From Porphyridium purpureum (lineage: Eukaryota), in assembly GCA_008690995.1 (NCBI GenBank), contig VRMN01000004.1:124001-188000 (forward strand): 64,000 nt of DNA, written 5' to 3'. The notes beneath the pieces were generated by a model. It saw only the letters and a list, made by a program, of their open reading frames with translations. It searched no databases and was not told the origin of the DNA. Positions 14,790 through 40,201 of this stretch are shown here, in pieces. The stretch's first letter is position 1, and each line of letters starts with the position of its first letter. Position numbers and translations under genes: made by a program.

Positions 14790-16266
14790 ATGGAAGCTCT
14801 GGTGGCTGGACTGCGCACAGAGCTCGGTACGGATCTTCGAAATGCGAGTGAGCGCATTATGATCCTCGAGCAAGAACTCGCGCGAGAGCGGGCAGCGAGA
14901 GAGCACATGGGACCGCCCCATTTCTCAGCGAGTGCAGTCTCGCGCGTCGCAGGGCCAGCGCCAATGAAGGTGTTCACCGGAGCACGGGACGCGACAGAAA
15001 TTGCCACATGGGTTATGGACGTAAAGGAGCGGATCTACGAGCCGCTTCAAGAGGAAGCAGCTGCAAGCGGTCGCACCTGGGCGGCGTCGAGTGAGCGTTT
15101 GGCTGTGCGGACAGCGGCAACGTACCTGGAGGGGGATGCCAAAGCTTGGTACGTCCATCTGGCACAAAAGCCTGAGACGTTCTCGGACTTTTTGGGGGAG
15201 CTGACTGCGCGTTTTCGGCCGATGGACTTCGCCAAGAGGGCTCGAGACCAGCTGGCGGAGACGCGACAGGGAGACAAGAGTGTCGAAGATTACGTCGTTG
15301 CATTTGATTCGCTGTGTTTGAAAATCCCCGACATCGGCAGCGCTGAAAAGCTTGACCGATTTGTCCGGGGTCTAAACGAACGCGTTAGGATTGAGGTCTT
15401 GCTGAGACAGCCGTCGACCTACGAAGATGGGCTCACGAAGGCCCTCGACGTCGACTCGGTTTTGAAAACGGGTCAGCGCAGGATTGGGGGTCCTTCGTTC
15501 GGAAGCGGATCTGATGGCCGGGCACCTATGGAGTTAGGCGCCGCAGAACAGATGCAAAAGAAAAAGAAAATGAAATTTAAGAAAAAGCGCAGAGGGCGCA
15601 AGTCAAGGCAGAATGATGTCTGTCATGCATGCAAGAAGAAAGGACATTGGCAACGAGACTGCCCGGACGCGGAGACCGACGGCGTGGAACTTGAGCTGCT
15701 CCATGCTGAGCGCGGCATGGCCGGCGAAAAGGCTCTGTCTCTAGTGAAACGAAACGTGAGCGTGGACGGCGTCGCTGCCGTCGCCGTCGTAGACACTGGG
15801 GCGACGAATACCTTCTTGTCCTACTCTTTATGCCTTCGTGAAGGTATAAAGGTTGTGAAGCGTGCAACGCTTGCTGTTCGACTTGCGAATGGCTCTGTCA
15901 CCCGGGCGCGTGGGATAGCACGCGTCGTGATCGGAATGGCTGGGTTTCGCAACGCCCGTTTGACAGCGATTGTTCGCAGCGGCAAGCATGACGTGATTCT
16001 CGGGCTTGACTGGCTTCGAGCCCAAGGAGCTAGCTTGCGCGTTGGAGGACAAGAGTTCCTGCAGACAGAGGTCGTTTGTCTGAACAAAATCGACCATGAA
16101 GTGAGAACAAGATCTGGCGCCGCACGCAGTGGAGTAGACGGGGGTGCCGAAAGCTTATGTCAAGATTCCACCCGTGAATCCGCAGGGAGTACCGGTTCCG
16201 CTATAACGTGCGAGGAATCCGATTCAGGCGATGATCTTTCAGATACTGGGGTCGAGGGAGTGAAAG
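14790..16266 (+). CDS. gag-pol: Element B polyprotein, N-terminal part (Gag, zinc knuckle, aspartic protease)
   Basis: YLEGDAKAWY, QGDKSVEDY, FVRGL, PMELG, CHACKKKGHWQRDC, VDTGATNTF, DVILGLDWL; interrupted by C. Confidence 0.85.
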
Positions 16267-17323
16267 TGTCACGAACCGTGCTGGCCCAGGACACAGCGGC
16301 ACACCCAACAGCAAGCCAAGCGGCACACGCACGCACACAAGCTGGACAATCCACGCAACCAAGAGGAAACACAAGACACCCGCAGCCAACTGGACCTGCG
16401 GCAGGCAGGAAACCCGGAACCAACGACGCTCACGCACGCTGTTCACACGCAAACAGCCAAGAGCACTCACACACGGGACCGACAGAACCAACCAAGAGCA
16501 GACACACGGGAAAGACACAGCCAACCAAGAGCACACGCACGGAGCAGGCACAGCCAACCAAAAGCACACACACGGAAGACGCGCGTAACGGGGGAACCAG
16601 GCGTCCGCTGCCCAACCGGGATCCCGTTCGGCCACACCTTACGGTGATCCGGGACCCGGGGAGGCGTTGTGGGCAGCCGGGGTTAGCCGGAGGAGGTTGC
16701 CTCACCTTTCGGCTTCAAACGGCCTATCACTCCTTTATCCGCCCCCGCCCACGTACCACCCCCGGATCCGCTTCCGAACAAGGACCGTCTAATGACGCCT
16801 TACCCCAGGGCATCCGCGAACCTTCCCCGTTAAACCCCCCGCTCGCTCGCTCGCGCTGTACTCCCGCCGTACCCCCGCCGTACCCCCGCTGTACTCCCGC
16901 TGTACCCCCGCTGTACCCCCGCTCCCTCAACAGGTACCCAAGGCCCGAACACGCTTCCTTGAATACACCTGTTTTTACTTAGATCCACCTTCACCCTTCT
17001 GTCTCCCGACCCCCCTCTCCCCTCCTTGGTTGCCGACCCGCGCGTCTTTTTATACCCATCGCGACCACTGTACCCCCGAGGTACAGTGCCTTGCTGTCGC
17101 TGAGTCTAGAACCTTCCAGAAGGTTCCAGCCACCGCCTGGCTGTACACCCATTCCATACTGGGTGGTCATCGCGCGTCTGGTCCCTAAGGGAAGGGGCCT
17201 TCAGGCCTACCACGCGCCCCCTTGTACACCTACAGTACAGTGGGTCCGGCGCGACCAGGTATCCGGCCACGGACTATGGCTATTTTTAATCATTTCCTTA
17301 ACACACGGGCTACTCCCGTGACA
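16267..17323 (-). repeat. LTR of C (3' LTR)
   Basis: TGTCACG...CGTGACA, 1057 bp; internal TGTACCCCCG and CAGCCAACCAAGAGCA subrepeats; TATAAAA on the minus strand. Confidence 0.95.
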
Positions 17324-17562
17324 TCCCACCCTCTCCGCTTCCCAATGTCAGGTATCACATGGTCCGAAGCTTCCGGAGAGTCACTTCATACTTACAGCAC
17401 ATGCCAATGCTTGACGCGTCCGGCATCCACGTCTCAAGCTCCATGTCGCCCGTGCACTGGCCATCGGCTTCGTGTGCCCGTCTTGGCAACGTAAGTACTC
17501 GAAGAGGACGTCCGTCCACGTGGCCCTCCACCCGGCCGGTGTGTCCGAGGTTCCGCCACTGG

Positions 17563-20500
17563 TCACGCGTCACGGTAGGCAGCCACCATCATTGGTGGCA
17601 ATGCGAGCTCAGGTTCCCACGTATCCCCACGTTTACCGAGTCCTCGCCATCTAACTCTGTACTCTCGGCGTCCGCCCACAACCCGATCCCCGGCTATAGC
17701 CTCTATAGCCCAGCTGCCGTCTTCTCCTTGCAAGACTTGGGATCCACTTGCCTCAAGGAGGTCCTTGTGGGCCCGAGCAAGCCGGTTCACGTGGACCAAC
17801 TTCCCGTCAGGATGGCCTTCACTGCACAGTACTGCATGAACCCCGACCATTCTCAGGATGGATAGTGGTCCTACCCACGGCTTTTTCAGCTTGCGCCCTT
17901 CTCCTGAAGGCGGCGCCCAAACGTACACCACGTCGCCCGGCTTGAAGTCATGTTCCCTGACTCGGCGATCATAGTTCTTCGTGTACCGATCCTGTGCGAT
18001 CTTCGCATTCTTATTGGCAATGGCGTGACATGCAGCAAGCTTCTTCGCGAGGTCATCTGCTTGTTCAACAGCTCTGGGTCCCGCCATACTTGCCCAGTCC
18101 CGCGCCGGCTCACCATACAACAGTTCAAACGGAGACATCTTCGTGGATGCATGCCGGGCTGTATTATACGCATACACCATTACCGACAACCAGCGATCCC
18201 AGTCTTTTCCGTTCGCACACACGTATGCCGACAACATTTGACACACTGTCTGGTTAAAGCGCTCCACAACCCCGTTCGTCTGCGGATGGTATGCTGTCGT
18301 AAGCATACGTCCTACACCCAGATTTTCACACATTTTTGAAAGGATGTCGGCTACAAAGCCCGGTCCCCGGTCGGACAGCAGAGACTCTGGCGGTCCAAAA
18401 TCGCACACCCAACCGTCTAGGAAAACACGTGCCAGTGTAGCCGCAGTCTCATCCTTGACTGCATGGGCACGAACCCACTTTGTGAAGGCGTCCACCATGA
18501 TTACCACTTTGCTGTGCCCGCGAGTTGTTGTCGGTGTGATACTCAGAACATCTATCGAGACAATCTCGAAACGTCTCACCGCGCGATAGACTTGCATGCG
18601 AGCCCTTCTCGGGGGCGCCTTTGTTTTCCTTGAAAAGCACTCATGGCAACAAAGAACAAACTGACGAACATCTTCCGTCCAACCGGTCCACCAGTATCGT
18701 GCATCCGAGACCCGCTTTGCAGTCTTTTCTATTCCAAGGTGCCCTGAAAGTGGCGTGCTGGGATACACATGCAGAACGCGCTGCACCAGAGCGTTTGGTA
18801 TCACGACCCTGGACTCATCGCGAAGCATAGCCCAGATGACTCCATCCTCATCAACGGTGTACTCCGGGTACGTGTATTCGGGCTTGTCTGCTTTCAGATT
18901 CTTCAACTGTTCCTGAATGTCCGTGTCGTCTGCGTATGCAGCCACGATCTCTTCCATCGAAGGTGGTGTGTACGCATCGTTCGCTCCTGTATGCTCGCCA
19001 GTATGAAGCAGCAGCTCTCGCACTCCGGCCGATGTGACAGGGACCATACCCCCATCGGCCCCCGAAGCTGGACCCTGAATCTCTTCCTGCAGCATTTCAG
19101 CCAACCGAACTACCCACTTCACTTCCTCATCCTCAACAGCATTCAGTCCAATGAGCTCGATTTCGCTCGTGTTGTTGAGAGTCTCAGACTTATTGCTCTC
19201 GCTCGCCACCCGAGCCTCTTCCCCATTCATACGTACAGCTGGACGCGAAAGCGCATCTGCCACTGTATTCGCCTTGCCCGGATGATGCTGAACCTGGAAG
19301 TCGAAGTCCTGTACCTTGAGAATCCATCGCGCAATCCGACCTTGAGGCTCCTTTTGCCTCATGAGCCAGCTCAATGCGCTGTGGTCAGTCATGAGCACGA
19401 ATCGTTTGCCGTACAAGTAATGCCTGAAGTGCTCCATGGCTGCAATGGCGGCCAAGCACTCCTTCTCCGTCACGGTATAGTTCTGCTCGGCCGGTCTCAG
19501 AAGCCTCGAGTAAAATGCCACTGGACGATCGCCAGTACCCTCTCTCTGCGTCAACATTGCTCCCAAGCCAGTGCTAGAAGCGTCTGTCCACAGCGTATGC
19601 TCTGCTTCTGGGTCGTATGCAGCCAAAACCTTTCGATCTCCAGTTTCTGGATCGCTGAGTGCTTCCCGAAGCGACAGAAACGCCTGACTCTGAGGCTCAC
19701 CAAATCGTGCCTGCCAATCCGCCGAGTTCATAGGGTATTTCTTCCACTTGCTTCCTTTGGCGTTGATTTGAAGCCCCTTCATAGCATCCCTAAGAGGTCT
19801 GCAGACTTCCTCAAATCCCTCGATAAAATTGCGGAACCACCCCACGAGCCCAATGAACTGCTGCAGTTCCTTTGCATTCCTCGGCTCCTGCCATGCTCGC
19901 ACAGCCTCCGTCTTCCTCTGGCTCGGCCTTATACCGTCCAGGCCGATATCATGTCCAAGAAACTCGACCCTTAAAGCCCCAAATCTGCACTTCGACAATG
20001 AGAACACCAAGCCCGCAGCGCAGAATTGCTCCAGCACCCGCTGCAGCGCTTGCAAGTGCTCTTCAAACGTCTTTGTCCCGATTGCCAAATCATCAATGTA
20101 AACCAATGCATTCAGGTACCTGAGCGGGCCCAGGACCGTATTTGTCAATCGCTGGAAGGTACTTGGGCTATTACAGCAACCCTGAGGTAATCGGCAGTAT
20201 TGAAACAGCCCGTCCGGAGTGATAATCGCTGTCAATGGTCGGCTCTCGGGGGCCAGAGGGACCTGGAAGAAGCCATCCTTCAGATCCAGGATACTCTTGA
20301 ACTTCCACGATGCAAACCAGTCGATCATCTCTCCCACGTCCGGAATGGGATATCGATCTTTGACAGTCGCATCATTAAGCGTTCGGAAGTCTGTCGTCAG
20401 ACGCCAGCCGCCTTTCGGCTTCTTGACCATGACATTCTGGCTCGACACATCTGACAAACTCGGCTCCAGCACTCCTCGGGCGACCAGCCCTTGCACCATC

Positions 20501-21342
20501 TCGCGCTCAGCCTGCGTCACCGCAGGAGCCCTGCGACGTAACCTTGCCCTGGGGAGATCCTCCAAACGCTCTGGCTTGATGCGGATCGTATGCTCGACGA
20601 GGTCTGTCTTACCCAGCTCCGGCCGGAAGAGAACCCAAAACTTCTTCAAGAGCCCCTTCATCTCCCTGCTTTGCGCTTCATCCAAATGCTCAAAGATCTT
20701 GGCTTCAATGGTAGAACAAACAGCCTCGTTGTGACCTGCATACTTTTCTTCGAGGGCCTGGATTCGCTTCTTCACTTCTGCTCCATCAGCAATATAGTGC
20801 ACCGCCTCCAACTGCACCGTGGGTTTGGCTTCCTCATACATCGATCCCAGGATCCTGTGTCTTTCCAGGCATGTATGACACACGGCTTCCTGTGTACTGG
20901 AAACGTCTCGGTTGACAAAAGTAATCCATCCGCCCGAGCGTAGGCCCAGACCCTTTCCCGGGATCAAGCAACTGACATGCTTGGCAAGAAAACGCATTCC
21001 CAGTATGAGATCAGGTCCGAGGTTCCTCATAATCCGGACGCTTTCCTCCGACTGAATTCCCTCACCAACCCAAATTGTGGCAACGCTCTCCTCGGCCTCC
21101 CCCAACACCTCATTGGTTGGACCCAATGCCTGTGTGTGGGTCTTTCTACGAAGAAGCCCAAGACGGTCAGCCAAATCGTCGTTCATCCACGTGGATAAAG
21201 CCCCCGTATCAACCAGCGCAGTAGTCCGAACCTTCAGGACTCCCCATTCAGCCTGTACGTCTATCCATGGATACGAGCCCAGTGGGACTGCCTCCGACAA
21301 TTCTTCAGATTCCGGGGGGCCTTCGCATCCCCCCGCTACTCG
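17563..21342 (-). CDS. pol: Pol of C copy 1 (PR-RT-RH-INT-chromodomain), -1 frame to gag
   Basis: LVDTGA, LPQG, YIDD, TDAS, SDRG, ERFN, C-terminal YRVRWRGL..DTWEPE. Confidence 0.95.
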   Translation of the reverse strand, partial: RVAGGCEGPPESEELSEAVPLGSYPWIDVQAEWGVLKVRTTALVDTGALSTWMNDDLADRLGLLRRKTHTQALGPTNEVLGEAEESVATIWVGEGIQSEESVRIMRNLGPDLILGMRFLAKHVSCLIPGKGLGLRSGGWITFVNRDVSSTQEAVCHTCLERHRILGSMYEEAKPTVQLEAVHYIADGAEVKKRIQALEEKYAGHNEAVCSTIEAKIFEHLDEAQSREMKGLLKKFWVLFRPELGKTDLVEHTIRIKPERLEDLPRARLRRRAPAVTQAEREMVQGLVARGVLEPSLSDVSSQNVMVKKPKGGWRLTTDFRTLNDATVKDRYPIPDVGEMIDWFASWKFKSILDLKDGFFQVPLAPESRPLTAIITPDGLFQYCRLPQGCCNSPSTFQRLTNTVLGPLRYLNALVYIDDLAIGTKTFEEHLQALQRVLEQFCAAGLVFSLSKCRFGALRVEFLGHDIGLDGIRPSQRKTEAVRAWQEPRNAKELQQFIGLVGWFRNFIEGFEEVCRPLRDAMKGLQINAKGSKWKKYPMNSADWQARFGEPQSQAFLSLREALSDPETGDRKVLAAYDPEAEHTLWTDASSTGLGAMLTQREGTGDRPVAFYSRLLRPAEQNYTVTEKECLAAIAAMEHFRHYLYGKRFVLMTDHSALSWLMRQKEPQGRIARWILKVQDFDFQVQHHPGKANTVADALSRPAVRMNGEEARVASESNKSETLNNTSEIELIGLNAVEDEEVKWVVRLAEMLQEEIQGPASGADGGMVPVTSAGVRELLLHTGEHTGANDAYTPPSMEEIVAAYADDTDIQEQLKNLKADKPEYTYPEYTVDEDGVIWAMLRDESRVVIPNALVQRVLHVYPSTPLSGHLGIEKTAKRVSDARYWWTGWTEDVRQFVLCCHECFSRKTKAPPRRARMQVYRAVRRFEIVSIDVLSITPTTTRGHSKVVIMVDAFTKWVRAHAVKDETAATLARVFLDGWVCDFGPPESLLSDRGPGFVADILSKMCENLGVGRMLTTAYHPQTNGVVERFNQTVCQMLSAYVCANGKDWDRWLSVMVYAYNTARHASTKMSPFELLYGEPARDWASMAGPRAVEQADDLAKKLAACHAIANKNAKIAQDRYTKNYDRRVREHDFKPGDVVYVWAPPSGEGRKLKKPWVGPLSILRMVGVHAVLCSEGHPDGKLVHVNRLARAHKDLLEASGSQVLQGEDGSWAIEAIAGDRVVGGRREYRVRWRGLGKRGDTWEPELALPPMMVAAYRDA

Positions 21343-22316
21343 TTTTTTGTCTGGCGTTCTTCGGTCCTCTGCCTCTTATTTTTCTCCCACTTTGGGCACC
21401 CCATGCGAACGTGGCCCCGCTCCTGGCACTCCCAGCACTTGACCAGTCGCTTGCGAGGATTCAACCCATGGAGCCCAGCTTCATCAAAGTTACCCAAATG
21501 GTGCACGCGCTCGGGCTTCCTCACTGCCCTTACACCGTACTGCGAGCCAAGCGCACCAAAGGTTCCATACTGACCAGCCTCCTCCAACAGAGCAGTCTTC
21601 ATCAAGGTCCAGTTCCCCTGTATGCCGTACGTCCTGGCCTGACGACGCAGCTCGGAGTTTTTCGGAAGCGCCAACGTAAGTGCCTCAATCTTGCGAGTGT
21701 CAGATTCTCCCAGAGCCGTGCAGCGATCCTCCAGAACCTCCACGAATTTCTTCAGGTCCTGGCCAATAACATACTCAACATCGTGATGCTCTGCACGAAG
21801 GGCGCGCTCGTGCTCCTTGTTGTAGAAGTAAGCAGCCACTGCCGCCCATGCCTCTTGTGCTGTTGCACCGTGCAACTCCGACAGGACCTCGTAGCATTTC
21901 CTCAGCCCCACCCCGCGGAAAACTGCATCAATCGAGGATACATGTTGGTCTGGATCCTCTCCCATGTCACGCAGGCGATTGAACCAGACCATCTTGGCGG
22001 TCAGAAAAAGTGGATCACCGGCCTTCTCAATCTGCACGCCCGCGTCACAAATAGCCTGGCCCAGTTGAGAACGAATCTTGCCGCGCACAATGGCGGGGAC
22101 ACCCTCTTCCTTCTGCTGAACACTCACAACCCCATGACTTCCTATCTCGTCACCACGAGCCGTGGGCATTGTCGGCTCTGGTGCCAGCGCGCCAGCCTGT
22201 GCACGTTCCAGCTCGCTCGAGGACGCGTGCTCTCGCGCATCGTCTGAGCCCATCGTCGTCTTCCTGCCACGCACCATCTTTGCGACTTCGTTCCTGCTCT
22301 GAATCCTCTCTCGCAA
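21336..22316 (-). CDS. gag: Gag of C copy 1
   Basis: CWECQERGHVRMGC knuckle; directly upstream of pol; start uncertain. Confidence 0.85.
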   Translation of the reverse strand: MRERIQSRNEVAKMVRGRKTTMGSDDAREHASSSELERAQAGALAPEPTMPTARGDEIGSHGVVSVQQKEEGVPAIVRGKIRSQLGQAICDAGVQIEKAGDPLFLTAKMVWFNRLRDMGEDPDQHVSSIDAVFRGVGLRKCYEVLSELHGATAQEAWAAVAAYFYNKEHERALRAEHHDVEYVIGQDLKKFVEVLEDRCTALGESDTRKIEALTLALPKNSELRRQARTYGIQGNWTLMKTALLEEAGQYGTFGALGSQYGVRAVRKPERVHHLGNFDEAGLHGLNPRKRLVKCWECQERGHVRMGCPKWEKNKRQRTEERQTKNE

Positions 22317-22456
22317 TCCTTCACTCGGTGACCGTACGTATCAGAATGTGGACACAAGTTTGTCCAAGATCAAGACCGATCTCACGTCCACACCCCACCC
22401 TCTCTCGCACCAACGTCAGATGCCACGCAATCCTGGAAGATAATTTCCGGAAATTA

Positions 22457-23514
22457 TGTCACGAACCGTGCTGGCCCAGGACACAGCGGCACACCCAACA
22501 GCAAGCCAAGCGGCACACGCACGCACACAAGCTGGACAATCCACGCAACCAAGAGGAAACACAAGACACCCGCAGCCAACTGGACCTGCGGCAGGCAGGA
22601 AACCCGGAACCAACGACGCTCACGCACGCTGTTCACACGCAAACAGCCAAGAGCACTCACACACGGGACCGACAGAACCAACCAAGAGCAGACACACGGG
22701 AAAGACACAGCCAACCAAGAGCACACGCACGGAGCAGGCACAGCCAACCAAAAGCACACACACGGAAGACGCGCGTAACGGGGGAACCAGGCGTCCGCTG
22801 CCCAACCGGGATCCCGTTCGGCCACACCTTACGGTGATCCGGGACCCGGGGAGGCGTTGTGGGCAGCCGGGGTTAGCCGGAGGAGGTTGCCTCACCTTTC
22901 GGCTTCAAACGGCCTATCACTCCTTTATCCGCCCCCGCCCACGTACCACCCCCGGATCCGCTTCCGAACAAGGACCGTCTAATGACGCCTTACCCCAGGG
23001 CATCCGCGAACCTTCCCCGTTAAACCCCCCGCTCGCTCGCTCGCGCTGTACTCCCGCCGTACCCCCGCCGTACCCCCGCTGTACTCCCGCTGTACCCCCG
23101 CTGTACCCCCGCTCCCTCAACAGGTACCCAAGGCCCGAACACGCTTCCTTGAATACACCTGTTTTTACTTAGATCCACCTTCACCCTTCTGTCTCCCGAC
23201 CCCCCTCTCCCCTCCTTGGTTGCCGACCCGCGCGTCTTTTTATACCCATCGCGACCACTGTACCCCCGAGGTACAGTGCCTTGCTGTCGCTGAGTCTAGA
23301 ACCTTCCAGAAGGTTCCAGCCACCGCCTGGCTGTACACCCATTCCATACTGGGTGGTCATCGCGCGTCTGGTCCCTAAGGGAAGGGGCCTTCAGGCCTAC
23401 CACGCGCCCCCTTGTACACCTACAGTACAGTGGGTCCGGCGCGACCAGGTATCCGGCCACGGACTATGGCTATTTTTTAATCATTTCCTTAACACACGGG
23501 CTACTCCCGTGACA
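22457..23514 (-). repeat. LTR of C (shared middle LTR)
   Basis: 1058 bp, near-identical to the other two. Confidence 0.95.
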
Positions 23515-23753
23515 TCCCACCCTCTCCGCTTCCCAATGTCAGGTATCACATGGTCCGAAGCTTCCGGAGAGTCACTTCATACTTACAGCACATGCCAATG
23601 CTTGACGCGTCCGGCATCCACGTCTCAAGCTCCATGTCGCCCGTGCACTGGCCATCGGCTTCGTGTGCCCGTCTTGGCAACGTAAGTACTCGAAGAGGAC
23701 GTCCGTCCACGTGGCCCTCCACCCGGCCGGTGTGTCCGAGGTTCCGCCACTGG

Positions 23754-26700
23754 TCACGCGTCACGGTAGGCAGCCACCATCATTGGTGGCAATGCGAGCT
23801 CAGGTTCCCACGTATCCCCACGTTTACCGAGTCCTCGCCATCTAACTCTGTACTCTCGGCGTCCGCCCACAACCCGATCCCCGGCTATAGCCTCTATAGC
23901 CCAGCTGCCGTCTTCTCCTTGCAAGACTTGGGATCCACTTGCCTCAAGGAGGTCCTTGTGGGCCCGAGCAAGCCGGTTCACGTGGACCAACTTCCCGTCA
24001 GGATGGCCTTCACTGCACAGTACTGCATGAACCCCGACCATTCTCAGGATGGATAGTGGTCCTACCCACGGCTTTTTCAGCTTGCGCCCTTCTCCTGAAG
24101 GCGGCGCCCAAACGTACACCACGTCGCCCGGCTTGAAGTCATGTTCCCTGACTCGGCGATCATAGTTCTTCGTGTACCGATCCTGTGCGATCTTCGCATT
24201 CTTATTGGCAATGGCGTGACATGCAGCAAGCTTCTTCGCGAGGTCATCTGCTTGTTCAACAGCTCTGGGTCCCGCCATACTTGCCCAGTCCCGCGCCGGC
24301 TCACCATACAACAGTTCAAACGGAGACATCTTCGTGGATGCATGCCGGGCTGTATTATACGCATACACCATTACCGACAACCAGCGATCCCAGTCTTTTC
24401 CGTTCGCACACACGTATGCCGACAACATTTGACACACTGTCTGGTTAAAGCGCTCCACAACCCCGTTCGTCTGCGGATGGTATGCTGTCGTAAGCATACG
24501 TCCTACACCCAGATTTTCACACATTTTTGAAAGGATGTCGGCTACAAAGCCCGGTCCCCGGTCGGACAGCAGAGACTCTGGCGGTCCAAAATCGCACACC
24601 CAACCGTCTAGGAAAACACGTGCCAGTGTAGCCGCAGTCTCATCCTTGACTGCATGGGCACGAACCCACTTTGTGAAGGCGTCCACCATGATTACCACTT
24701 TGCTGTGCCCGCGAGTTGTTGTCGGTGTGATACTCAGAACATCTATCGAGACAATCTCGAAACGTCTCACCGCGCGATAGACTTGCATGCGAGCCCTTCT
24801 CGGGGGCGCCTTTGTTTTCCTTGAAAAGCACTCATGGCAACAAAGAACAAACTGACGAACATCTTCCGTCCAACCGGTCCACCAGTATCGTGCATCCGAG
24901 ACCCGCTTTGCAGTCTTTTCTATTCCAAGGTGCCCTGAAAGTGGCGTGCTGGGATACACATGCAGAACGCGCTGCACCAGAGCGTTTGGTATCACGACCC
25001 TGGACTCATCGCGAAGCATAGCCCAGATGACTCCATCCTCATCAACGGTGTACTCCGGGTACGTGTATTCGGGCTTGTCTGCTTTCAGATTCTTCAACTG
25101 TTCCTGAATGTCCGTGTCGTCTGCGTATGCAGCCACGATCTCTTCCATCGAAGGTGGTGTGTACGCATCGTTCGCTTCTGTATGCTCGCCAGTATGAAGC
25201 AGCAGCTCTCGCACTCCGGCCGATGTGACAGGGACCATACCCCCATCGGCCCCCGAAGCTGGACCCTGAATCTCTTCCTGCAGCATTTCAGCCAACCGAA
25301 CTACCCGCTTCACTTCCTCATCCTCAACAGCATTCAGTCCAATGAGCTCGATTTCGCTCGTGTTGTTGAGAGTCTCAGACTTATTGCTCTCGCTCGCCAC
25401 CCGAGCCTCTTCCCCATTCATACGTACAGCTGGACGCGAAAGCGCATCTGCCACTGTATTCGCCTTGCCCGGATGATGCTGAACCTGGAAGTCGAAGTCC
25501 TGTACCTTGAGAATCCATCGCGCAATCCGACCTTGAGGCTCCTTTTGCCTCATGAGCCAGCTCAATGCGCTGTGGTCAGTCATGAGCACGAATCGTTTGC
25601 CGTACAAGTAATGCCTGAAGTGCTCCATGGCTGCAATGGCGGCCAAGCACTCCTTCTCCGTCACGGTATAGTTCTGCTCGGCCGGTCTCAGAAGCCTCGA
25701 GTAAAATGCCACTGGACGATCGCCAGTACCCTCTCTCTGCGTCAACATTGCTCCCAAGCCAGTGCTAGAAGCGTCTGTCCACAGCGTATGCTCTGCTTCT
25801 GGGTCGTATGCAGCCAAAACCTTTCGATCTCCAGTTTCTGGATCGCTGAGTGCTTCCCGAAGCGACAGAAACGCCTGACTCTGAGGCTCACCAAATCGTG
25901 CCTGCCAATCCGCCGAGTTCATAGGGTATTTCTTCCACTTGCTTCCTTTGGCGTTGATTTGAAGCCCCTTCATAGCATCCCTAAGAGGTCTGCAGACTTC
26001 CTCAAATCCCTCGATAAAATTGCGGAACCACCCCACGAGCCCAATGAACTGCTGCAGTTCCTTTGCATTCCTCGGCTCCTGCCATGCTCGCACAGCCTCC
26101 GTCTTCCTCTGGCTCGGCCTTATACCGTCCAGGCCGATATCATGTCCAAGAAACTCGACCCTTAAAGCCCCAAATCTGCACTTCGACAATGAGAACACCA
26201 AGCCCGCAGCGCAGAATTGCTCCAGCACCCGCTGCAGCGCTTGCAAGTGCTCTTCAAACGTCTTTGTCCCGATTGCCAAATCATCAATGTAAACCAATGC
26301 ATTCAGGTACCTGAGCGGGCCCAGGACCGTATTTGTCAATCGCTGGAAGGTACTTGGGCTATTACAGCAACCCTGAGGTAATCGGCAGTATTGAAACAGC
26401 CCGTCCGGAGTGATAATCGCTGTCAATGGTCGGCTCTCGGGGGCCAGAGGGACCTGGAAGAAGCCATCCTTCAGATCCAGGATACTCTTGAACTTCCACG
26501 ATGCAAACCAGTCGATCATCTCTCCCACGTCCGGAATGGGATATCGATCTTTGACAGTCGCATCATTAAGCGTTCGGAAGTCTGTCGTCAGACGCCAGCC
26601 GCCTTTCGGCTTCTTGACCATGACATTCTGGCTCGACACATCTGACAAACTCGGCTCCAGCACTCCTCGGGCGACCAGCCCTTGCACCATCTCGCGCTCA

Positions 26701-27533
26701 GCCTGCGTCACCGCAGGAGCCCTGCGACGTAACCTTGCCCTGGGGAGATCCTCCAAACGCTCTGGCTTGATGCGGATCGTATGCTCGACGAGGTCTGTCT
26801 TACCCAGCTCCGGCCGGAAGAGAACCCAAAACTTCTTCAAGAGCCCCTTCATCTCCCTGCTTTGCGCTTCATCCAAATGCTCAAAGATCTTGGCTTCAAT
26901 GGTAGAACAAACAGCCTCGTTGTGACCTGCATACTTTTCTTCGAGGGCCTGGATTCGCTTCTTCACTTCTGCTCCATCAGCAATATAGTGCACCGCCTCC
27001 AACTGCACCGTGGGTTTGGCTTCCTCATACATCGATCCCAGGATCCTGTGTCTTTCCAGGCATGTATGACACACGGCTTCCTGTGTACTGGAAACGTCTC
27101 GGTTGACAAAAGTAATCCATCCGCCCGAGCGTAGGCCCAGACCCTTTCCCGGGATCAAGCAACTGACATGCTTGGCAAGAAAACGCATTCCCAGTATGAG
27201 ATCAGGTCCGAGGTTCCTCATAATCCGGACGCTTTCCTCCGACTGAATTCCCTCACCAACCCAAATTGTGGCAACGCTCTCCTCGGCCTCCCCCAACACC
27301 TCATTGGTTGGACCCAATGCCTGTGTGTGGGTCTTTCTACGAAGAAGCCCAAGACGGTCAGCCAAATCGTCGTTCATCCACGTGGATAAAGCCCCCGTAT
27401 CAACCAGCGCAGTAGTCCGAACCTTCAGGACTCCCCATTCAGCCTGTACGTCTATCCATGGATACGAGCCCAGTGGGACTGCCTCCGACAATTCTTCAGA
27501 TTCCGGGGGGCCTTCGCATCCCCCCGCTACTCG
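23754..27533 (-). CDS. pol: Pol of C copy 2
   Basis: Same as copy 1 with two amino-acid differences seen. Confidence 0.95.
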   Translation of the reverse strand, partial: RVAGGCEGPPESEELSEAVPLGSYPWIDVQAEWGVLKVRTTALVDTGALSTWMNDDLADRLGLLRRKTHTQALGPTNEVLGEAEESVATIWVGEGIQSEESVRIMRNLGPDLILGMRFLAKHVSCLIPGKGLGLRSGGWITFVNRDVSSTQEAVCHTCLERHRILGSMYEEAKPTVQLEAVHYIADGAEVKKRIQALEEKYAGHNEAVCSTIEAKIFEHLDEAQSREMKGLLKKFWVLFRPELGKTDLVEHTIRIKPERLEDLPRARLRRRAPAVTQAEREMVQGLVARGVLEPSLSDVSSQNVMVKKPKGGWRLTTDFRTLNDATVKDRYPIPDVGEMIDWFASWKFKSILDLKDGFFQVPLAPESRPLTAIITPDGLFQYCRLPQGCCNSPSTFQRLTNTVLGPLRYLNALVYIDDLAIGTKTFEEHLQALQRVLEQFCAAGLVFSLSKCRFGALRVEFLGHDIGLDGIRPSQRKTEAVRAWQEPRNAKELQQFIGLVGWFRNFIEGFEEVCRPLRDAMKGLQINAKGSKWKKYPMNSADWQARFGEPQSQAFLSLREALSDPETGDRKVLAAYDPEAEHTLWTDASSTGLGAMLTQREGTGDRPVAFYSRLLRPAEQNYTVTEKECLAAIAAMEHFRHYLYGKRFVLMTDHSALSWLMRQKEPQGRIARWILKVQDFDFQVQHHPGKANTVADALSRPAVRMNGEEARVASESNKSETLNNTSEIELIGLNAVEDEEVKRVVRLAEMLQEEIQGPASGADGGMVPVTSAGVRELLLHTGEHTEANDAYTPPSMEEIVAAYADDTDIQEQLKNLKADKPEYTYPEYTVDEDGVIWAMLRDESRVVIPNALVQRVLHVYPSTPLSGHLGIEKTAKRVSDARYWWTGWTEDVRQFVLCCHECFSRKTKAPPRRARMQVYRAVRRFEIVSIDVLSITPTTTRGHSKVVIMVDAFTKWVRAHAVKDETAATLARVFLDGWVCDFGPPESLLSDRGPGFVADILSKMCENLGVGRMLTTAYHPQTNGVVERFNQTVCQMLSAYVCANGKDWDRWLSVMVYAYNTARHASTKMSPFELLYGEPARDWASMAGPRAVEQADDLAKKLAACHAIANKNAKIAQDRYTKNYDRRVREHDFKPGDVVYVWAPPSGEGRKLKKPWVGPLSILRMVGVHAVLCSEGHPDGKLVHVNRLARAHKDLLEASGSQVLQGEDGSWAIEAIAGDRVVGGRREYRVRWRGLGKRGDTWEPELALPPMMVAAYRDA

Positions 27534-28507
27534 TTTTTTGTCTGGCGTTCTTCGGTCCTCTGCCTCTTATTTTTCTCCCACTTTGGGCACTCCATGCGAA
27601 CGTGGCCCCGCTCCTGGCACTCCCAGCACTTGACCAGTCGCTTGCGAGGATTCAACCCATGGAGCCCAGCTTCATCAAAGTTACCCAAATGGTGCACGCG
27701 CTCGGGCTTCCTCACTGCCCTTACACCGTACTGCGAGCCAAGCGCACCAAAGGTTCCATACTGACCAGCCTCCTCCAACAGAGCAGTCTTCATCAAGGTC
27801 CAGTTCCCCTGTATGCCGTACGTCCTGGCCTGACGACGCAGCTCGGAGTTTTTCGGAAGCGCCAACGTAAGTGCCTCAATCTTGCGAGTGTCAGATTCTC
27901 CCAGAGCCGTGCAGCGATCCTCCAGAACCTCCACGAATTTCTTCAGGTCCTGGCCAATAACATACTCAACATCGTGATGCTCTGCACGAAGGGCGCGCTC
28001 GTGCTCCTTGTTGTAGAAGTAAGCAGCCACTGCCGCCCATGCCTCTTGTGCTGTTGCACCGTGCAACTCCGACAGGACCTCGTAGCATTTCCTCAGCCCC
28101 ACCCCGCGGAAAACTGCATCAATCGAGGATACATGTTGGTCTGGATCCTCTCCCATGTCACGCAGGCGATTGAACCAGACCATCTTGGCGGTCAGAAAAA
28201 GTGGATCACCGGCCTTCTCAATCTGCACGCCCGCGTCACAAATAGCCTGGCCCAGTTGAGAACGAATCTTGCCGCGCACAATGGCGGGGACACCCTCTTC
28301 CTTCTGCTGAACACTCACAACCCCATGACTTCCTATCTCGTCACCACGAGCCGTGGGCATTGTCGGCTCTGGTGCCAGCGCGCCAGCCTGTGCACGTTCC
28401 AGCTCGCTCGAGGACGCGTGCTCTCGCGCATCGTCTGAGCCCATCGTCGTCTTCCTGCCACGCACCATCTTTGCGACTTCGTTCCTGCTCTGAATCCTCT
28501 CTCGCAA
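27527..28507 (-). CDS. gag: Gag of C copy 2
   Basis: CWECQERGHVRMEC knuckle. Confidence 0.85.
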   Translation of the reverse strand: MRERIQSRNEVAKMVRGRKTTMGSDDAREHASSSELERAQAGALAPEPTMPTARGDEIGSHGVVSVQQKEEGVPAIVRGKIRSQLGQAICDAGVQIEKAGDPLFLTAKMVWFNRLRDMGEDPDQHVSSIDAVFRGVGLRKCYEVLSELHGATAQEAWAAVAAYFYNKEHERALRAEHHDVEYVIGQDLKKFVEVLEDRCTALGESDTRKIEALTLALPKNSELRRQARTYGIQGNWTLMKTALLEEAGQYGTFGALGSQYGVRAVRKPERVHHLGNFDEAGLHGLNPRKRLVKCWECQERGHVRMECPKWEKNKRQRTEERQTKNE

Positions 28508-28647
28508 TCCTTCACTCGGTGACCGTACGTATCAGAATGTGGACACAAGTTTGTCCAAGATCAAGACCGATCTCACGTCCACACCCCACCCTCTCTCGCA
28601 CCAACGTCAGATGCCACGCAATCCTGGAAGATAATTTCCGGAAATTA

Positions 28648-29705
28648 TGTCACGAACCGTGCTGGCCCAGGACACAGCGGCACACCCAACAGCAAGCCAA
28701 GCGGCACACGCACGCACACAAGCTGGACAATCCACGCAACCAAGAGGAAACACAAGACACCCGCAGCCAACTGGACCTGCGGCAGGCAGGAAACCCGGAA
28801 CCAACGACGCTCACGCACGCTGTTCACACGCAAACAGCCAAGAGCACTCACACACGGGACCGACAGAACCAACCAAGAGCAGACACACGGGAAAGACACA
28901 GCCAACCAAGAGCACACGCACGGAGCAGGCACAGCCAACCAAAAGCACACACACGGAAGACGCGCGTAACGGGGGAACCAGGCGTCCGCTGCCCAACCGG
29001 GATCCCGTTCGGCCACACCTTACGGTGATCCGGGACCCGGGGAGGCGTTGTGGGCAGCCGGGGTTAGCCGGAGGAGGTTGCCTCACCTTTCGGCTTCAAA
29101 CGGCCTATCACTCCTTTATCCGCCCCCGCCCACGTACCACCCCCGGATCCGCTTCCGAACAAGGACCGTCTAATGACGCCTTACCCCAGGGCATCCGCGA
29201 ACCTTCCCCGTTAAACCCCCCGCTCGCTCGCTCGCGCTGTACTCCCGCCGTACCCCCGCCGTACCCCCGCTGTACTCCCGCTGTACCCCCGCTGTACCCC
29301 CGCTCCCTCAACAGGTACCCAAGGCCCGAACACGCTTCCTTGAATACACCTGTTTTTACTTAGATCCACCTTCACCCTTCTGTCTCCCGACCCCCCTCTC
29401 CCCTCCTTGGTTGCCGACCCGCGCGTCTTTTTATACCCATCGCGACCACTGTACCCCCGAGGTACAGTGCCTTGCTGTCGCTGAGTCTAGAACCTTCCAG
29501 AAGGTTCCAGCCACCGCCTGGCTGTACACCCATTCCATACTGGGTGGTCATCGCGCGTCTGGTCCCTAAGGGAAGGGGCCTTCAGGCCTACCACGCGCCC
29601 CCTTGTACACCTACAGTACAGTGGGTCCGGCGCGACCAGGTATCCGGCCACGGACTATGGCTATTTTTTAATCATTTCCTTAACACACGGGCTACTCCCG
29701 TGACA
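28648..29705 (-). repeat. LTR of C (5' LTR)
   Basis: 1058 bp, near-identical to the other two. Confidence 0.95.
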
Positions 29706-29709
29706 AAAG

Positions 29710-32663
29710 AGTGCAGTCATGATATCATGCACATGCCAGCGTCTAAAGGTTGTGGTGCGTGCGCGCTCGGTAAAATAACGAGGAAGCGCGCTGTACGCAG
29801 AAAAGATCAACCTGCCGTCGCCTTCAACTTCGCGGTATCGGTGGACCTTGTTGATCCAACCGAGGTGGGCGTCGACGGGACGCGCTGGATGTTTGTTCAT
29901 CGGGACGTGGGCACCGGATGGATTGAGGTCCGAGCTCTGTCAGACAAGCGAGCAGAGTCGGCGCTTGTGGCATTGAAGGAAAGCCAGCGAGGAAAGGGTT
30001 GGCCTCGACTGGTCAAGTCTGATGGCGGTGGTGAGTTCGAGGGAGCCTTCGAAGACACCCTGCGAAATAATTTAGTGGCACACGAGCGCGGCGTGGCGCG
30101 TCGAGCCAACACACATGCCGGTCAAGAGCGCGTTCACCGCGATTTGAATGCAACTCTTCGTGTCCTTTTGTTGCAGTCCGGGCTACCGACGACATGGTTT
30201 GCGTTCGCCGGGAGCTACTGGGCCGTCGCCAGAAACCTCACTTGGACCGGGCGAGCCAGTGATAAAACTCCGTTCGAGAAACGATACGGTCGAGAATGGG
30301 TCGGAACGATTCCACCATTCGGTTGTGGCGTCTCTATATATTCGGAGTTCGCGGAGAAATATGAACCAAACGGCATCTGTGCGGTTGTTGTTGGCATAAA
30401 GGTACCGGAGACGGAAAGGAACGACACAAGTGTTTTGAATGTCTTGGCGGTGCCGGTCGGCGATTTGAGACCCGCGGCAGCTCGTTGGGTGGCGGAATGG
30501 AAGAGTCTACCAGACCATTGGCCGGTGCGTCGATTGGGTCTGAGAGCAGCAGACGAGACACCGGCTCTAGTGCTGTCGCCGGAACGTGGTGATCCGCATG
30601 AATTTACCGGCGTTATGAACGACGCACCTGTGGCACGCGTAGGCAGCCCTGGTGACGGTCGGACATGGAAGCGCGCATGGTCAGAAGAGGAGTGCGCAGC
30701 GGTACGCGATGGTTTCGAACGGCTGGGACCAAAGTGGGCGAGGATCAAGAAAGAAAGTGGCGACATTCTAGTAAGCCGCAGTTCCAAAGACGTGAGGTCC
30801 AAAGCGCAGGCACTCGGCTTGCTAGGTCCGGAGGCGCAAGGTCTCGCGGAGCACCGACGTGGAAAGTCGGGAGCGGCACGCAGAGAGAGAGTGCGCACAG
30901 CGTCGACAGACCTTCACAGCATGGTGCGCGAGGCACTAGTGACTGAGGTCATCGACGCCGAGGAAGCAATGCAATCGCGGCCGGGACGCTTGGCGTTTGA
31001 GAAAGAATTGAAGGCATTGCGGAAGATGGGCGCCTTGCCTTTAGAGAAGGCAATGGAGAAGGCAGACGCAGACAGAGTGCCCGGTTCACAATTTGTGAAG
31101 CTAAAGGCAATTTTTGCGATAAAGAACGCGGAACTGGGCATTGACGCTCGCCGACATAAGTGCCGCTTAGTCGCACAAGGCTGCGTTGTTAAGAACGCAA
31201 ATGGGAGACTTGTGGTAGACCCCTTTGCGTGGGAAAAACCTCCGGGATTGGTCGCTGTCAGGGCAGCAATTAGTGCTGCCATCTTGGAACACGGCGATGA
31301 AGCTGACGGTGGTTTTCTGGACGTGGACAATGCCTACGTCCACGCGAAGTTGGGCGGACCGCCAACCTTTGTCGAGTTGGGCGGGCTTCTACCTTTGTTG
31401 AATGGATGTGTACTTCCGGGAGAGTTCCGAAAGTTAGAGAAGATGTGCAGACCCGTCGTGCGCCTGCCATTCGCTCTGTACGGAATGCCGCGGAGCGGCA
31501 GTGACTTTGGAGCTTTCGCCAGGAAACAATTACTGGGCCTGGGCTGGCGAGAGGTCACCTCTGACAAGAATTTGTATGTGCGACGACGTGGAAAGTACTT
31601 GATGTGGGCGGTTTTATATGTGGACGACGGAGGCGTATTCGGACATCGCCTGGGGGTACGCGCGGCCGTTGACGAATTGAAGAATGTATTCCGAGTGTCT
31701 AAGCAGGTTGAGTACGTTAACGAGGCCAGCAAGAAAAGCCCGGTTCGATTTTTGGGTGTGGGCATCTACAGGGACGCTGAGAGCCATGCGTGGGTTCTTG
31801 ATTCGTGGGAATACGCGAAGCACGTGGTCGCTGACATCGAAGGCACAAAGAAGCGTGCGACGCCGTTGGTTCACCGACCTGAACCAGACAAGGAGGGCAG
31901 CAGCTGCGGGGCCGAATCGCGCAAGAAGCTCGGCCAATTACTATGGCTCGTCCGGACGACAAGACCGGACCTAGCGTTCGCTGTCGGAACCGTAGCGCGG
32001 TGTACGGACAGATGGAGCCAGGAGGCTGAGAAATGTTTGACGGACATATTGCGGTATATTCGGGACACTGCAGATGTGCATCTGGAATACGCGATGCCGC
32101 GAGTGAAAGGCCTCGAGCCCATCATAATTTGTTACTCAGATGCAGATCTCTCCGAGGAGAGATCGACGACGGGTATTTGTGCATACATGTGCGCCGGCGG
32201 AGCCGACCATATTGTAGATTGGTCGAGCAGTCGACAAAGACGAACTGCTACATCTACCGCCGAGTCGGAGCTTATTGCCCTGCATACTGCCGTGCAGCAC
32301 AGAGCGTTCCCACTGGCGACATTCGTTGAAGAATCGCGTGGAAAGTGGCCACGCATGCATATGAAAGTAGACAATGAGACAGCGTTGGGCGCTGTGGAGA
32401 AGGGCTGGAGTGAAAAGATGCTGCATCTTCCCAAGATGCAAAAGATAAGTCTGCGTTGGCTGCATGAGGTCGCAGCCGACGGACTCGCCGTATATGAGCA
32501 CGTGAAAAGCCGCGACAACTTAGCAGACGGTTTTACAAAGATACTGCCCGCGGACGCTTTCAATAAGCAAAAGGCCGGGTGGCACTTGGTTATGAACCCC
32601 AAGTTTGTGGACGTGTCGCGATCTTCGGCGGACACAGCGCAAGGAGGCGCGAGGAAACAATAA
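29710..32663 (+). CDS. gag-pol: Element B polyprotein, C-terminal part (integrase, Myb-like domain, RT, RNase H)
   Basis: HDIMH..CGAC, KSDGGGEF, ERVHR, KCRLVAQG, DVDNAY, LYVDD, YSDAD, STAESE, ADGFTK; in frame with the 5' part after removing C and one AAAG. Confidence 0.9.
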
Positions 32664-33060
32664 GGATTGCGCTTGGTGTTCGCCGCCAGTGCAGAGCACT
32701 TTATAAGTGCTGGTGTGGAGACCGCCGGCGGGCGGCTCTCCAGTTCTTTAGAGGTAAGAGGCTAGAGGCGTGCGGTGGAGTAAAGTGTTTGTTCTCCTTG
32801 TGTGTTGAGAGTTACAAAGCGGGGCGGCAAGATCACGCGTCGGCGTGTGAGCGCCCATCACTCCGTCTAGCCCACCACCGAGCCGGTGGTACGCGCGCGC
32901 ATCCCAAGCGGTCGGCGGAAGGGGAAAGGAAAGGTCACCGCGCGGACTTTGTACGCTGCCGTGAGCTCGTCGCTGCGCCTTAGGGAACTTCGGGGGACTT
33001 TATTTCCCTGAAGTTTCTTAGGACTGGACTGTACCTGCTCGCCCTCGTTGTTCCTCAACA

Positions 33061-38463: not shown

Positions 38464-38767
38464 TGGAAGTTTCTAAATAACACCTTTGTGTAAAAACCTT
38501 CCACTCTTACGAAAGTACACTTCTTTACGAAAGGTCAAAGGTGTAACTTTCACTCCCCTCTTTCTCAGCCCCTACCTAAGACGAATTTACGGAAGGACGG
38601 TCTCTCTGGAAGATGGGTGGCTTAAGTAGTCGGAGGGATGTGAATCGGGGAGCCCGGCGCCGTGATCTCCGGTAGCAGCTTCGGCCTCGTTGCTCTCGCC
38701 GAGCTCCAGGGCTCCGTTGTGTACAGGACTGGACTGTACCTGCTCGCCTTCGTTGTTCCTCAACAGC

Positions 38768-39997: not shown

Positions 39998-40201
39998 GTT
40001 GGATGTTATAGAGCCGTGACTCTAACGCACCCGGTAGGTCCCCTCGGCAATCGACTCTTCACCCGCGTGTCGACGCTCCAACCTTTATTGCCACTCACGA
40101 CAAACACTCTTCGCCTAACTTGAACTATCGCAGCCGCCGCAGACGTTTCTGAGATGTCATGCTTGTACGATTCCCCCATGCTGTCACGTCTCTGACTAGT
40201 A

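What the first reader, a model, noticed from the sequence alone, without database searches (positions are those of the whole stretch)
30666..30824. TRF/telobox-like Myb domain inside a Copia polyprotein, between integrase and RT
Seen: KRAWSEEECAAVRDGFERLGPKWARIKKESGDILVSRSSKDVRSKAQAL, in frame after the integrase core of element B. Knowledge: W-S-x-E-E...G....G-x-K-W-x-x-I......R(S/T) is the single-repeat Myb/SANT pattern of TRF1/TRB-type telomere-binding proteins, and integrase C-termini carry targeting modules (chromodomain of chromoviruses, Ty5 targeting domain). Inference: a captured DNA-binding domain that could steer integration to telomeric repeats or telo-boxes, which occur in promoters in this window. 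The third helix is divergent (DVRSKA rather than DLKDKW), so specificity may differ.
Basis: partly seen in the sequence, partly recalled or inferred. Interest (0 to 1): 0.85.

Follow-up and report, generated by a model that had tools for sequence, protein, structure and literature searches.

The report
Hybrid retrotransposon with telomere-type Myb integrase
A red-alga jumping gene that joins a Gypsy-type capsid and protease to a Copia-type integrase and reverse transcriptase carries a telomere-protein-like Myb domain between those two enzymes; its predicted DNA-reading residues differ from those of telomere proteins, so it likely aims insertions beside a short promoter-type DNA word rather than at telomeres.

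Summary
The Myb domain is real: in frame after the integrase, above Pfam's cut-off when scanned alone, and its model matches TRF1/Tbf1/TRF2 best. A Myb-like segment is present in 7 of 10 members of this retrotransposon clade, and in the four closest it is more conserved than the linker before it. It is of telobox ancestry, but the residues that read TTAGGG in TRF1 (D422, R425) are replaced. No telo-box lies within 500 nt of the insertion, so telomere targeting is not supported. Instead, 2 of 3 readable insertion sites carry ACTGTAC, a word enriched between genes here, one base outside the target duplication (chance 0.3-0.7%, n small, looked for after a hint). The host element is itself unusual. 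It has a Gypsy-type Gag and protease in one reading frame with Copia integrase-RT-RNase H, 372-bp LTRs ending CG...AG instead of TG...CA, a 5-bp target duplication and a likely half-tRNA primer site. This copy is split by a Gypsy insertion; other public runs hold it unsplit, and it is transcribed at low level. Verdict: a new variant of Copia element, likely with a retuned Myb aiming module. DNA binding is untested.

The parts
14141..14145 (+). left copy of the 5-bp target-site duplication GACTG
   Evidence: the uninterrupted target LTR at 38710-38765 holds GACTG once at this junction
14146..14517 (+). 5' LTR of element B, 372 bp, ends 5'-CG...AG-3'
   Evidence: 8 differences between the two LTRs; other copies in public runs begin at 14146 and one ends at 14517 with different flanks
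14474..14519 (+). strong predicted hairpin at the LTR 3' end, holding the LTR's single TTAGGG
   Evidence: -32.6 kcal/mol, z -4.4
14518..14534 (+). primer-binding site GGTTATGAGCCCAGCTC directly against the LTR; likely pairs with the anticodon half of initiator tRNA-Met
   Evidence: sequence; match to the Drosophila copia type is recalled; host tRNA not in window; no self-complement in the LTR
14688..16266 (+). Gypsy-type gag (capsid, PMELG, one CCHC knuckle) and retropepsin protease (DTG, ILG); stop codon at 14757-14759 in this strain
   Evidence: other runs read a sense codon there
16267..29705 (-). inserted tandem of a chromodomain Gypsy element (three LTRs, two bodies) with 4-bp duplication AAAG; splits element B between protease and integrase
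   Evidence: absent from contigs of runs X10 and X17
29710..30520 (+). Copia-type integrase: compact HHCC finger, D,D(35)E core (D near 29844, D 30021, E 30126), C-terminal domain
30666..30824 (+). TRF/telobox-derived Myb domain (W 30678, W 30735, Ala in place of the third Trp at 30804; helix 3 KDVRSKAQ)
30816..30893 (+). conserved basic extension GLLG..A.GL.EHRRGK.G..RR.R after the Myb, low-confidence helices
   Evidence: 52-80% identity in the four closest relatives; absent in P0014 and P0016
30930..32663 (+). Copia-type reverse transcriptase (YVDD at 31617) and RNase H, to the stop codon
   Evidence: (RVT_2 above cut-off)
32641..32647 (+). polypurine tract AAGGAGG, two bases before the 3' LTR
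   Evidence: the same tract precedes CGAGGA in a diverged subfamily (loose ends before 14163)
32650..33021 (+). 3' LTR of element B
33022..33026 (+). right copy of the target-site duplication GACTG
33028..33034 (+). ACTGTAC, candidate target word, one base outside the duplication
   Evidence: same word at the same distance in a second insertion (loose end before 32650)

Best explanation
This is a Copia-order LTR retrotransposon with a Gypsy-type Gag and protease whose integrase region ends in a Myb domain of telomere-protein (TRF) type, and that domain likely reads target DNA and places insertions one base from the word ACTGTAC in promoter-like DNA. Shown: the fold class, the telobox ancestry, the conservation, the changed third helix, the element's anatomy, and the word beside two insertion sites. 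Inferred: the protease cuts at the conserved hydrophobic strand just before the RT (near 30930), which would leave the Myb on the mature integrase. The basic arm and W-W core would still grip DNA, while helix 3 (K, R, S, Q at TRF1 positions V418, K421, D422, R425) would read a non-telomeric word. One Myb of the integration complex would bind on one side only, 7-13 bases from the joint, which is why the word appears on one flank and in either orientation.
For: Fold and ancestry. Kept under selection: identity to P0001 in Myb/extension versus the upstream linker and RT is 59/76 vs 33 and 63% (P0003), 67/80 vs 19 and 63% (P0007), 37/52 vs 26 and 45% (P0004), 37/60 vs 31 and 43% (P0013). A Myb is also present in the distant P0016 (37% RT identity; Pfam E 8.7e-05). 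The domain is basic (pI 9.7), with Lys or Arg at the R380 arm position in 7 of 9 rows and Arg at K421 in 8 of 9. Read outward from the LTR end, GTACAGT lies at -13..-7 in the window's right flank and in the left flank of another insertion seen in runs X3 and X17. The chance that two such sites share any 7-mer at the same offset is 0.33% for random host sites and 0.39-0.75% for sites near the word. None of 4 other insertions in the window shows it there (the end-points of one control, element D, are uncertain). ACTGTAC occurs 34 times against 3.8 expected, and 13 of its 15 host occurrences lie outside likely coding sequence (my reading). Precedent for integrase-tail modules: chromodomains in chromoviruses and in the Copia lineage CoDi-A (passages).
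Against: No binding was measured or modelled with DNA. Only 3 insertions had readable flanks: 2 show the word, the third (X10, right side only) does not, and a fourth (X10, left side) is a mixed consensus that does not appear to show it. I looked for a shared word only after an earlier AI note hinted at one, and that note may rest on the same public runs. The second site belongs to a diverged LTR (16-20 differences over about 235-275 nt), so its integrase is not this one. A host factor bound to the word could give the same spacing. TA+CAGT is also how Tc1-type transposon ends read (55948, 57493), so a site may be a transposon end. Three of 10 clade members lack the Myb (P0012, P0015, P0017), so the clade can persist without it. 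The third Trp is Ala, and by simulation loss of D422 lowers specificity instead of redirecting it.
Confidence: 0.5

Rival explanations
1. The Myb is a sequence-relaxed DNA or chromatin grip, or a protein-binding surface, and the spacing to ACTGTAC comes from a host factor or from the integrase core.
For: D422 is the residue that rejects off-target DNA in TRF1, and its loss gives strong binding to any DNA in simulation (PMC5737604 passages); it is absent in 9 of 9 rows. Helix 3 varies across the clade (P0014 AAAARLR). SANT domains score within 2-3 Z of TRF1. P0012 and P0015 carry a Cys-rich module in this region instead, and P0014 has both, as interchangeable accessory tails would.
Against: K, R, S and A at four helix-3 positions are shared by lineages only 43-45% identical in RT. 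A host protein sitting one base from the duplication would crowd the integration complex (inference).
Confidence: 0.22
2. The Myb binds the element's own LTR ends and makes up for the missing TG...CA signals.
For: The LTR ends are CG...AG, whereas a survey of 50 plant genomes found the first T invariable (bioRxiv 10.1101/137141 passages). The ends are imperfect inverted repeats (CGAGGAAAC / GTTTCTTAG), and a related word with TTAGGG recurs in the 3'-end hairpin. Myb or HTH domains bind element ends in Harbinger and Tc1 transposons (recalled; the Tc3 domain scores Z 5.8).
Against: It does not explain the word in the target flanks. One TTAGGG in 372 bp is near chance. The LTR ends of Myb-less relatives are unknown.
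Confidence: 0.13
3. One reading: the Myb steers integration to telomeric repeats or telo-boxes.
For: TRF-type ancestry. Telo-boxes are the top enriched 7-mer in host DNA here. One contig of run X17 joins two copies of an 11-nt unit (G-strand TTACTCTAGGG) to a B copy truncated at 30194; it resembles the proposed Galdieria telomere TTTATT(T)AGGG, and the Porphyridium telomere was not identified in PMC3622300 (passages). A non-standard telomere could favour a changed helix 3.
Against: No telomere or telo-box word lies within 500 nt of this insertion, nor in the three other 30-nt flank reads, one of them a mixed consensus. The D422 and R425 equivalents are replaced. The X17 join is inside the integrase gene, not at an LTR end, so it looks like repair of a break and not an insertion; it is one contig and 29 letters.
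Confidence: 0.1
4. The Myb is a neutral passenger picked up from a host gene.
For: Lost in 3 of 10 clade members; full-length Pfam scores are weak in most relatives (E 0.008-0.19, none at 0.5 for P0013).
Against: Conserved above the linker and near RT level in four relatives. Of three strain differences listed inside the domain, two are silent and one is Phe to Tyr.
Confidence: 0.05

Closest known systems
CoDi-A Ty1/Copia elements of diatoms, and Ty3/Gypsy chromoviruses
   Same: A host-type module at the integrase C-terminus; CoDi-A shows this in a Copia element (PMC2774666 passages), and for chromoviruses it is proposed to steer insertion (PMC10984392 passages).
   Different: The module here is a TRF-type Myb and not a chromodomain; it likely reads DNA sequence and not histone marks; Gag and protease are Gypsy-type.
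Pseudoviridae (Ty1/Copia), genus Hemivirus
   Same: PR-IN-RT-RH order, Copia-type RT and RNase H, one gag-pol frame, PPT, 5-bp duplication, a primer site of the short-tRNA-segment type (ICTV profile PMC8515867, whole text; primer match recalled).
   Different: Protease has DTG and ILG-type motifs where nearly all Copia proteases have LLS; Gag matches Ty3, Arc and PEG10; LTR ends are CG...AG.
TRF1/TRF2, plant TRB/TRFL and fungal Tbf1 telobox Myb domains
   Same: Single Myb repeat, helix lengths and spacing, basic N-terminal arm; best structural and profile matches.
   Different: D422, W424 and R425 positions are S, A and Q; followed by a clade-specific basic extension; no TRFH domain; sits in a retrotransposon polyprotein.
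Gmr1-like Ty3/Gypsy elements
   Same: Gypsy-type Gag and protease followed by integrase before RT (order noted).
   Different: Gmr1 elements have Gypsy RT; here RT hits RVT_2 and not RVT_1, RNase H is Copia-type, and the best integrase match is 7z0h (a Ty1 integrase by my recall).
Myb domains of R2 non-LTR elements and PIF/Harbinger transposons (recalled, not checked here)
   Same: A Myb-type domain used by a mobile element to bind target DNA or its own ends.
   Different: Those are non-LTR or cut-and-paste elements; no sequence comparison was made.

Membership tests
Myb/SANT domain | profile match above curated cut-off | tested here: met
   PF00249 30.1 bits vs 24.4 for the isolated domain
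Myb/SANT domain | three-helix fold | tested here: met
   (predicted model)
Myb/SANT domain | three spaced Trp/aromatic core residues | tested here: not met
   first two Trp kept; third position Ala in 8 of 9 rows, Leu in 1
TRF/telobox telomere-binding Myb | closest fold and sequence relatives are TRF-type | tested here: met
   top six VIA rows; Tbf1 top; 37 of 50 top non-retro hits telobox-type
TRF/telobox telomere-binding Myb | recognition helix with K421-D422-R425 equivalents (LKDKWR) | tested here: not met
   R-S-Q in the window; Asp in 0 of 9 rows, Arg425 in 1 of 9
TRF/telobox telomere-binding Myb | binds double-stranded telomeric repeats | not testable with these tools
   needs EMSA or SELEX
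Ty1/Copia (Pseudoviridae) | PR-IN-RT-RH order between LTRs with PBS and PPT | tested here: met
   unsplit contigs
Ty1/Copia (Pseudoviridae) | Copia-type RT and RNase H | tested here: met
   RVT_2 32.1 bits vs 31.6, no RVT_1; the nearest outside relatives carry Copia domains; tree has no Gypsy outgroup
Ty1/Copia (Pseudoviridae) | Copia-type Gag and protease (PF14223, PF22936, LLS motif) | tested here: not met
   PF03732, PF13975, PF13650 above cut-off, no PF14223 or PF22936 at E<=0.5-1; ILG-type motif in the window and in 7 of 7 relatives with a protease; criterion
Ty1/Copia (Pseudoviridae) | TG...CA LTR ends | tested here: not met
   CG...AG with a perfect 5-bp duplication and independent flanks
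Hemivirus | primes with a short segment of initiator tRNA-Met | tested here: inconclusive
   site abuts the LTR and fits the copia pattern as recalled; host tRNA not available; Rfam found nothing in 301 nt
Ty3/Gypsy (Metaviridae), incl. Gmr1-like | Gypsy-type RT (RVT_1) and RNase H | tested here: not met
Ty3/Gypsy (Metaviridae), incl. Gmr1-like | Ty3/Arc-like capsid and retropepsin of DDI1 type | tested here: met
   profile hits Ty3 Gag, dArc, PEG10, DDI1; model hits DDI1 and dArc1; few Copia Gag or protease structures exist to compete (recalled)

The most novel reading that the evidence does not exclude
A red-algal LTR retrotransposon lineage born by joining a Gypsy capsid-protease to a Copia integrase-RT, with LTR ends that break the TG...CA rule, which captured a telomere protein's Myb domain and reprogrammed its recognition helix to integrate at a fixed distance from the promoter word ACTGTAC: an LTR integrase aimed by its own sequence-reading domain.
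Probability: 0.45. Interest if true: 0.88.

Novelty: new variant of a known kind. Interest (0 to 1): 0.72.

Why it matters
LTR integrases with known targeting usually reach their sites through host proteins or histone marks (recalled). An integrase carrying its own Myb that fixes the insertion one base from a 7-nt word would be a natural sequence-aimed integrase. It is directly testable with one 55-residue domain and of interest for targeted DNA insertion. It would also show a telomere-binding fold retuned to a new word. Whatever the Myb does, a long-lived clade with Gypsy Gag-protease on Copia IN-RT-RH and CG...AG ends crosses the usual Copia/Gypsy line, and pipelines that require TG...CA would miss it.

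Tried and rejected
No whole genome is held for this window, so copies could not be mapped genome-wide. Metagenome scan: 15 loci, all distant Copia (22-29%), none with the Gypsy-type Gag, protease or Myb by HMM. Viral contigs: no relative and no LTR match. Prokaryote genomes: one 20-nt match, chance, no extension beyond 23 nt. The homologue search with the Gag-protease region at E<=1e-12 returned only the query, so the donor Gypsy lineage is unidentified. Timeless-like or phage-like 'LGL' HTH origin: Timeless scored Z 5.8 against 8.0 and 0.80 in the Atlas, so rejected as the closest kin. Gmr1-like reading: rejected on RT type. Self-priming: the longest complement of the primer site inside the LTR is 5 nt, rejected. 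TG-start reading of the LTR: rejected, since other copies share sequence only from 14146. My recollection that CoDi-A has Gypsy-type Gag was not borne out by the passages read. No RNA holder was listed among indexed runs; expression rests on two raw-read runs added by species label. The careful tree did not finish; the quick tree is quoted. The wide structural search for the Gag model could not be run. The sequence look-up of earlier findings was empty.

Full report
The observation. Scanned alone it passes Pfam's Myb cut-off (PF00249, 30.1 bits against 24.4, E 5.4e-07); inside the 984-aa polyprotein it scores 24.3. An AlphaFold2 model from four sequences has three confident helices and a low-confidence tail. 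Against 48,161 solved chains its six best matches are TRF1, Tbf1 and TRF2 domains (best Z 8.0, rmsd 1.2 over 49 residues), with c-Myb and SANT domains 1.3-2 Z lower. The tool warns that Z near 8 is not decisive alone, and Foldseek gave no row at E<=0.001. A profile search of 1.84 billion representatives returned 279 proteins at E<=0.001, of which 150 were listed. Among the 144 non-retroelement proteins rescored, 37 of the best 50 and 60 of 144 have a telobox-type third helix. The domain is therefore real and of TRF/telobox ancestry.

The host element. Relatives are named Porphyridium purpureum by their sources. Element B runs from a 5' LTR at 14146-14517 to a 3' LTR at 32650-33021 (372 bp, 8 differences), between perfect 5-bp duplications GACTG, inside the LTR of another Copia element. 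A tandem Gypsy element (16267-29705, duplication AAAG) splits it, and the two halves are in phase. In run X10 a 2830-nt contig goes straight from 16266 into the integrase start. In run X17 a contig of 2291 nt and depth 236.7 appears in both lays, covering 14490-16266 and 29706-30223. The unsplit element therefore exists. The window's strain also has a stop at 14757 that X17 and X22 read as a sense codon. In the two RNA runs laid, reads lie mainly in the sense direction: depth about 5 over the Myb in X21 and 14-42 over gag in X22, with strand calibrated on the minus-strand Gypsy LTR.

A Gypsy front on a Copia back. The Gag-protease half hits Retrotrans_gag, gag-asp_proteas and Asp_protease_2 above cut-off and Ty3_capsid just below, with no Copia Gag or protease family. 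Five single-frame relatives of 1493-1640 aa show the same (P0003, P0004, P0013, P0014, P0016). A profile of eight sequences hits Ty3 Gag, Drosophila Arc, PEG10 and DDI1 proteases for this half, and a model of it matches DDI1 and dArc1. The protease has the ILG-type motif in the window and 7 of 7 relatives, while Llorens et al. state that nearly all Copia proteases have LLS (PMC2774666, passages). The back half has a D,D(35)E integrase, then RVT_2 and a Copia RNase H. In a quick RT tree of 29 rows, 10 rows form one branch (SH-aLRT 98): seven with this architecture plus P0012, P0015 and P0017, whose Gag is not in their records. The tree has no Gypsy outgroup and a midpoint root, and I labelled P0007 by its overlap with P0005. 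The donor of the Gag was not found.

Unusual ends. Other copies in public runs share sequence only from 14146, one ends at 14517 before a different flank, and a diverged subfamily has the same purine tract followed by CGAGGA. The ends are thus CG...AG. The LTR_retriever preprint found seven non-canonical end types in 50 plant genomes and says only the first T is invariable (10.1101/137141, passages; its Table S2 could not be seen). The primer site abuts the LTR and fits the half-tRNA-Met pattern of copia as I recall it; the ICTV profile defines Hemivirus by use of a short tRNA segment (PMC8515867, whole text). The host tRNA was not available.

Is the Myb kept? A Myb-like segment aligns in 7 of the 10 clade members (P0001, P0003, P0004, P0007, P0013, P0014, P0016) and in three fragments (P0027, P0029, P0036); it is absent from P0012, P0015 and P0017. 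Scores against my own profiles are circular. Independent Pfam E-values on full-length proteins range from 8.7e-05 (P0016) to 0.19, with none for P0013. In the four closest relatives the Myb is 37-67% and its basic extension 52-80% identical to the window's, against 19-33% for the linker before it and 43-63% for RT. Of the strain differences listed for the pol half, 14 codons are silent and 10 are not; the three inside the Myb are two silent and one Phe-to-Tyr (63 rows were not shown).

Does it read telomeres? Taking the end-points of the structural alignment to hTRF1 without gaps in helix 3, positions R380, V418, K421, D422, W424 and R425 correspond to K, K, R, S, A and Q. Across nine rows, Asp422 is kept in none and Arg425 in one (read from alignment; the table collapsed rows with equal names). 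A simulation study names R380, K421 and R425 as affinity residues and D422 as the one that rejects off-target DNA (PMC5737604, passages). No TTAGGG or telo-box word lies within 500 nt of the insertion. The only pointer to telomeres is one X17 contig that joins an 11-nt tandem unit to a B copy broken inside the integrase gene; the species' telomere was unidentified in PMC3622300 (passages).

What the flanks show. An unreviewed note from this scan, on another piece of this genome, said that four of five insertion sites of a Myb-bearing element lie at one distance from a promoter-type word, without naming the word (e1-10699422). I then compared my own flanks. Read outward from the LTR end, GTACAGT lies at -13..-7 in the window's right flank (33028-33034) and in the left flank of a second insertion in runs X3 and X17. 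Simulated pairs share any 7-mer at equal offset in 0.33% of random host sites and 0.39-0.75% of sites near the word; 0 of 4 other insertions in the window have it there. The third readable insertion (X10, right side only) lacks it, and a fourth is an unreadable mix. The word occurs 34 times against 3.8 expected, mostly between genes.

Mechanism. Shown: fold class, ancestry, conservation, changed helix 3, anatomy, and two sites with the word. Inferred: protease cleavage at the conserved hydrophobic strand before the RT leaves the Myb on the integrase; its arm and helix 3 contact target DNA 7-13 bases from the joint on one side; insertions fall in promoter-like DNA and in other elements' LTRs, which spares coding sequence in a gene-dense genome. 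I give this 0.5, a relaxed or host-mediated tether 0.22, binding of the element's own ends 0.13, telomere or telo-box targeting 0.10, and a passenger 0.05.

Novelty. Full-text searches for Copia with Myb and Porphyridium, LTR integrase with a Myb domain, Gypsy-like gag in Copia, and hybrid elements in red algae gave no paper on this architecture in their listings (listings only, apart from passages of PMC10984392 and PMC2868851, which concern centromeres and an engineered TRAS1-TRF1 fusion). The word Myb does not occur in PMC2774666. Subscription journals and repeat databases were not searchable, so prior description is not excluded. It works like other LTR elements with an integrase-tail aiming module and is Copia by RT and gene order, but fails the Copia tests for Gag, protease and LTR ends: a new variant of a known kind. 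Interest 0.72.

Noticed in passing
window 30194 (run X17): A contig joins two copies of an 11-nt unit (G-strand TTACTCTAGGG) to a truncated B copy; candidate Porphyridium telomere repeat, like Galdieria's TTTATT(T)AGGG. Ten of its letters (CTCTAGGGTT) occur twice in the promoter-like stretch at 718 and 736. One contig, 29 letters.
   Followed up: partly
P0012 326-367, P0014 953-992, P0015 225-263: A Cys-rich module (CxxC...CxxC...H...CxxxxCxC) in the same integrase-tail region, alone or (P0014) in front of the Myb.
   Followed up: no
window 789, 3978, 12167, 13777-13848, 50800-50931, 52105, 53271-53309: ACTGTAC is 9-fold enriched, lies mostly between genes and in LTRs of elements A and C; candidate core promoter word.
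   Followed up: partly
window 679-745 and 47442-47472: Clusters of telo-box words AACCCTA/TAGGGTT upstream of genes.
   Followed up: partly
window 16267-29705: Very young tandem LTR-body-LTR-body-LTR of a chromodomain Gypsy element (99.9% identical), highly expressed in RNA runs; no evident tRNA-type site after its 5' LTR, where a short palindrome stands.
   Followed up: no
window 13903-38765 and about 40004-47383: Two further minus-strand Copia elements (C, D) of a separate long-branch clade with atypical Gag and no Pfam integrase hit; B sits inside C's LTR, giving three levels of nesting.
   Followed up: partly
window 38764-40001, 40198-41499 and 55948-57499: DNA transposons with terminal inverted repeats: one ISXO2/Merlin-like and two Tc1-like, by ORF motifs as recalled.
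   Followed up: no
window 14394-15221 (runs X3, X10, X17): A diverged, internally deleted derivative of element B exists in several runs.
   Followed up: no
window 48708-50120: Front-end fatty-acid desaturase with cytochrome b5 domain, and other intron-poor host genes on both sides of the transposon nest (names by motif, recalled).
   Followed up: no
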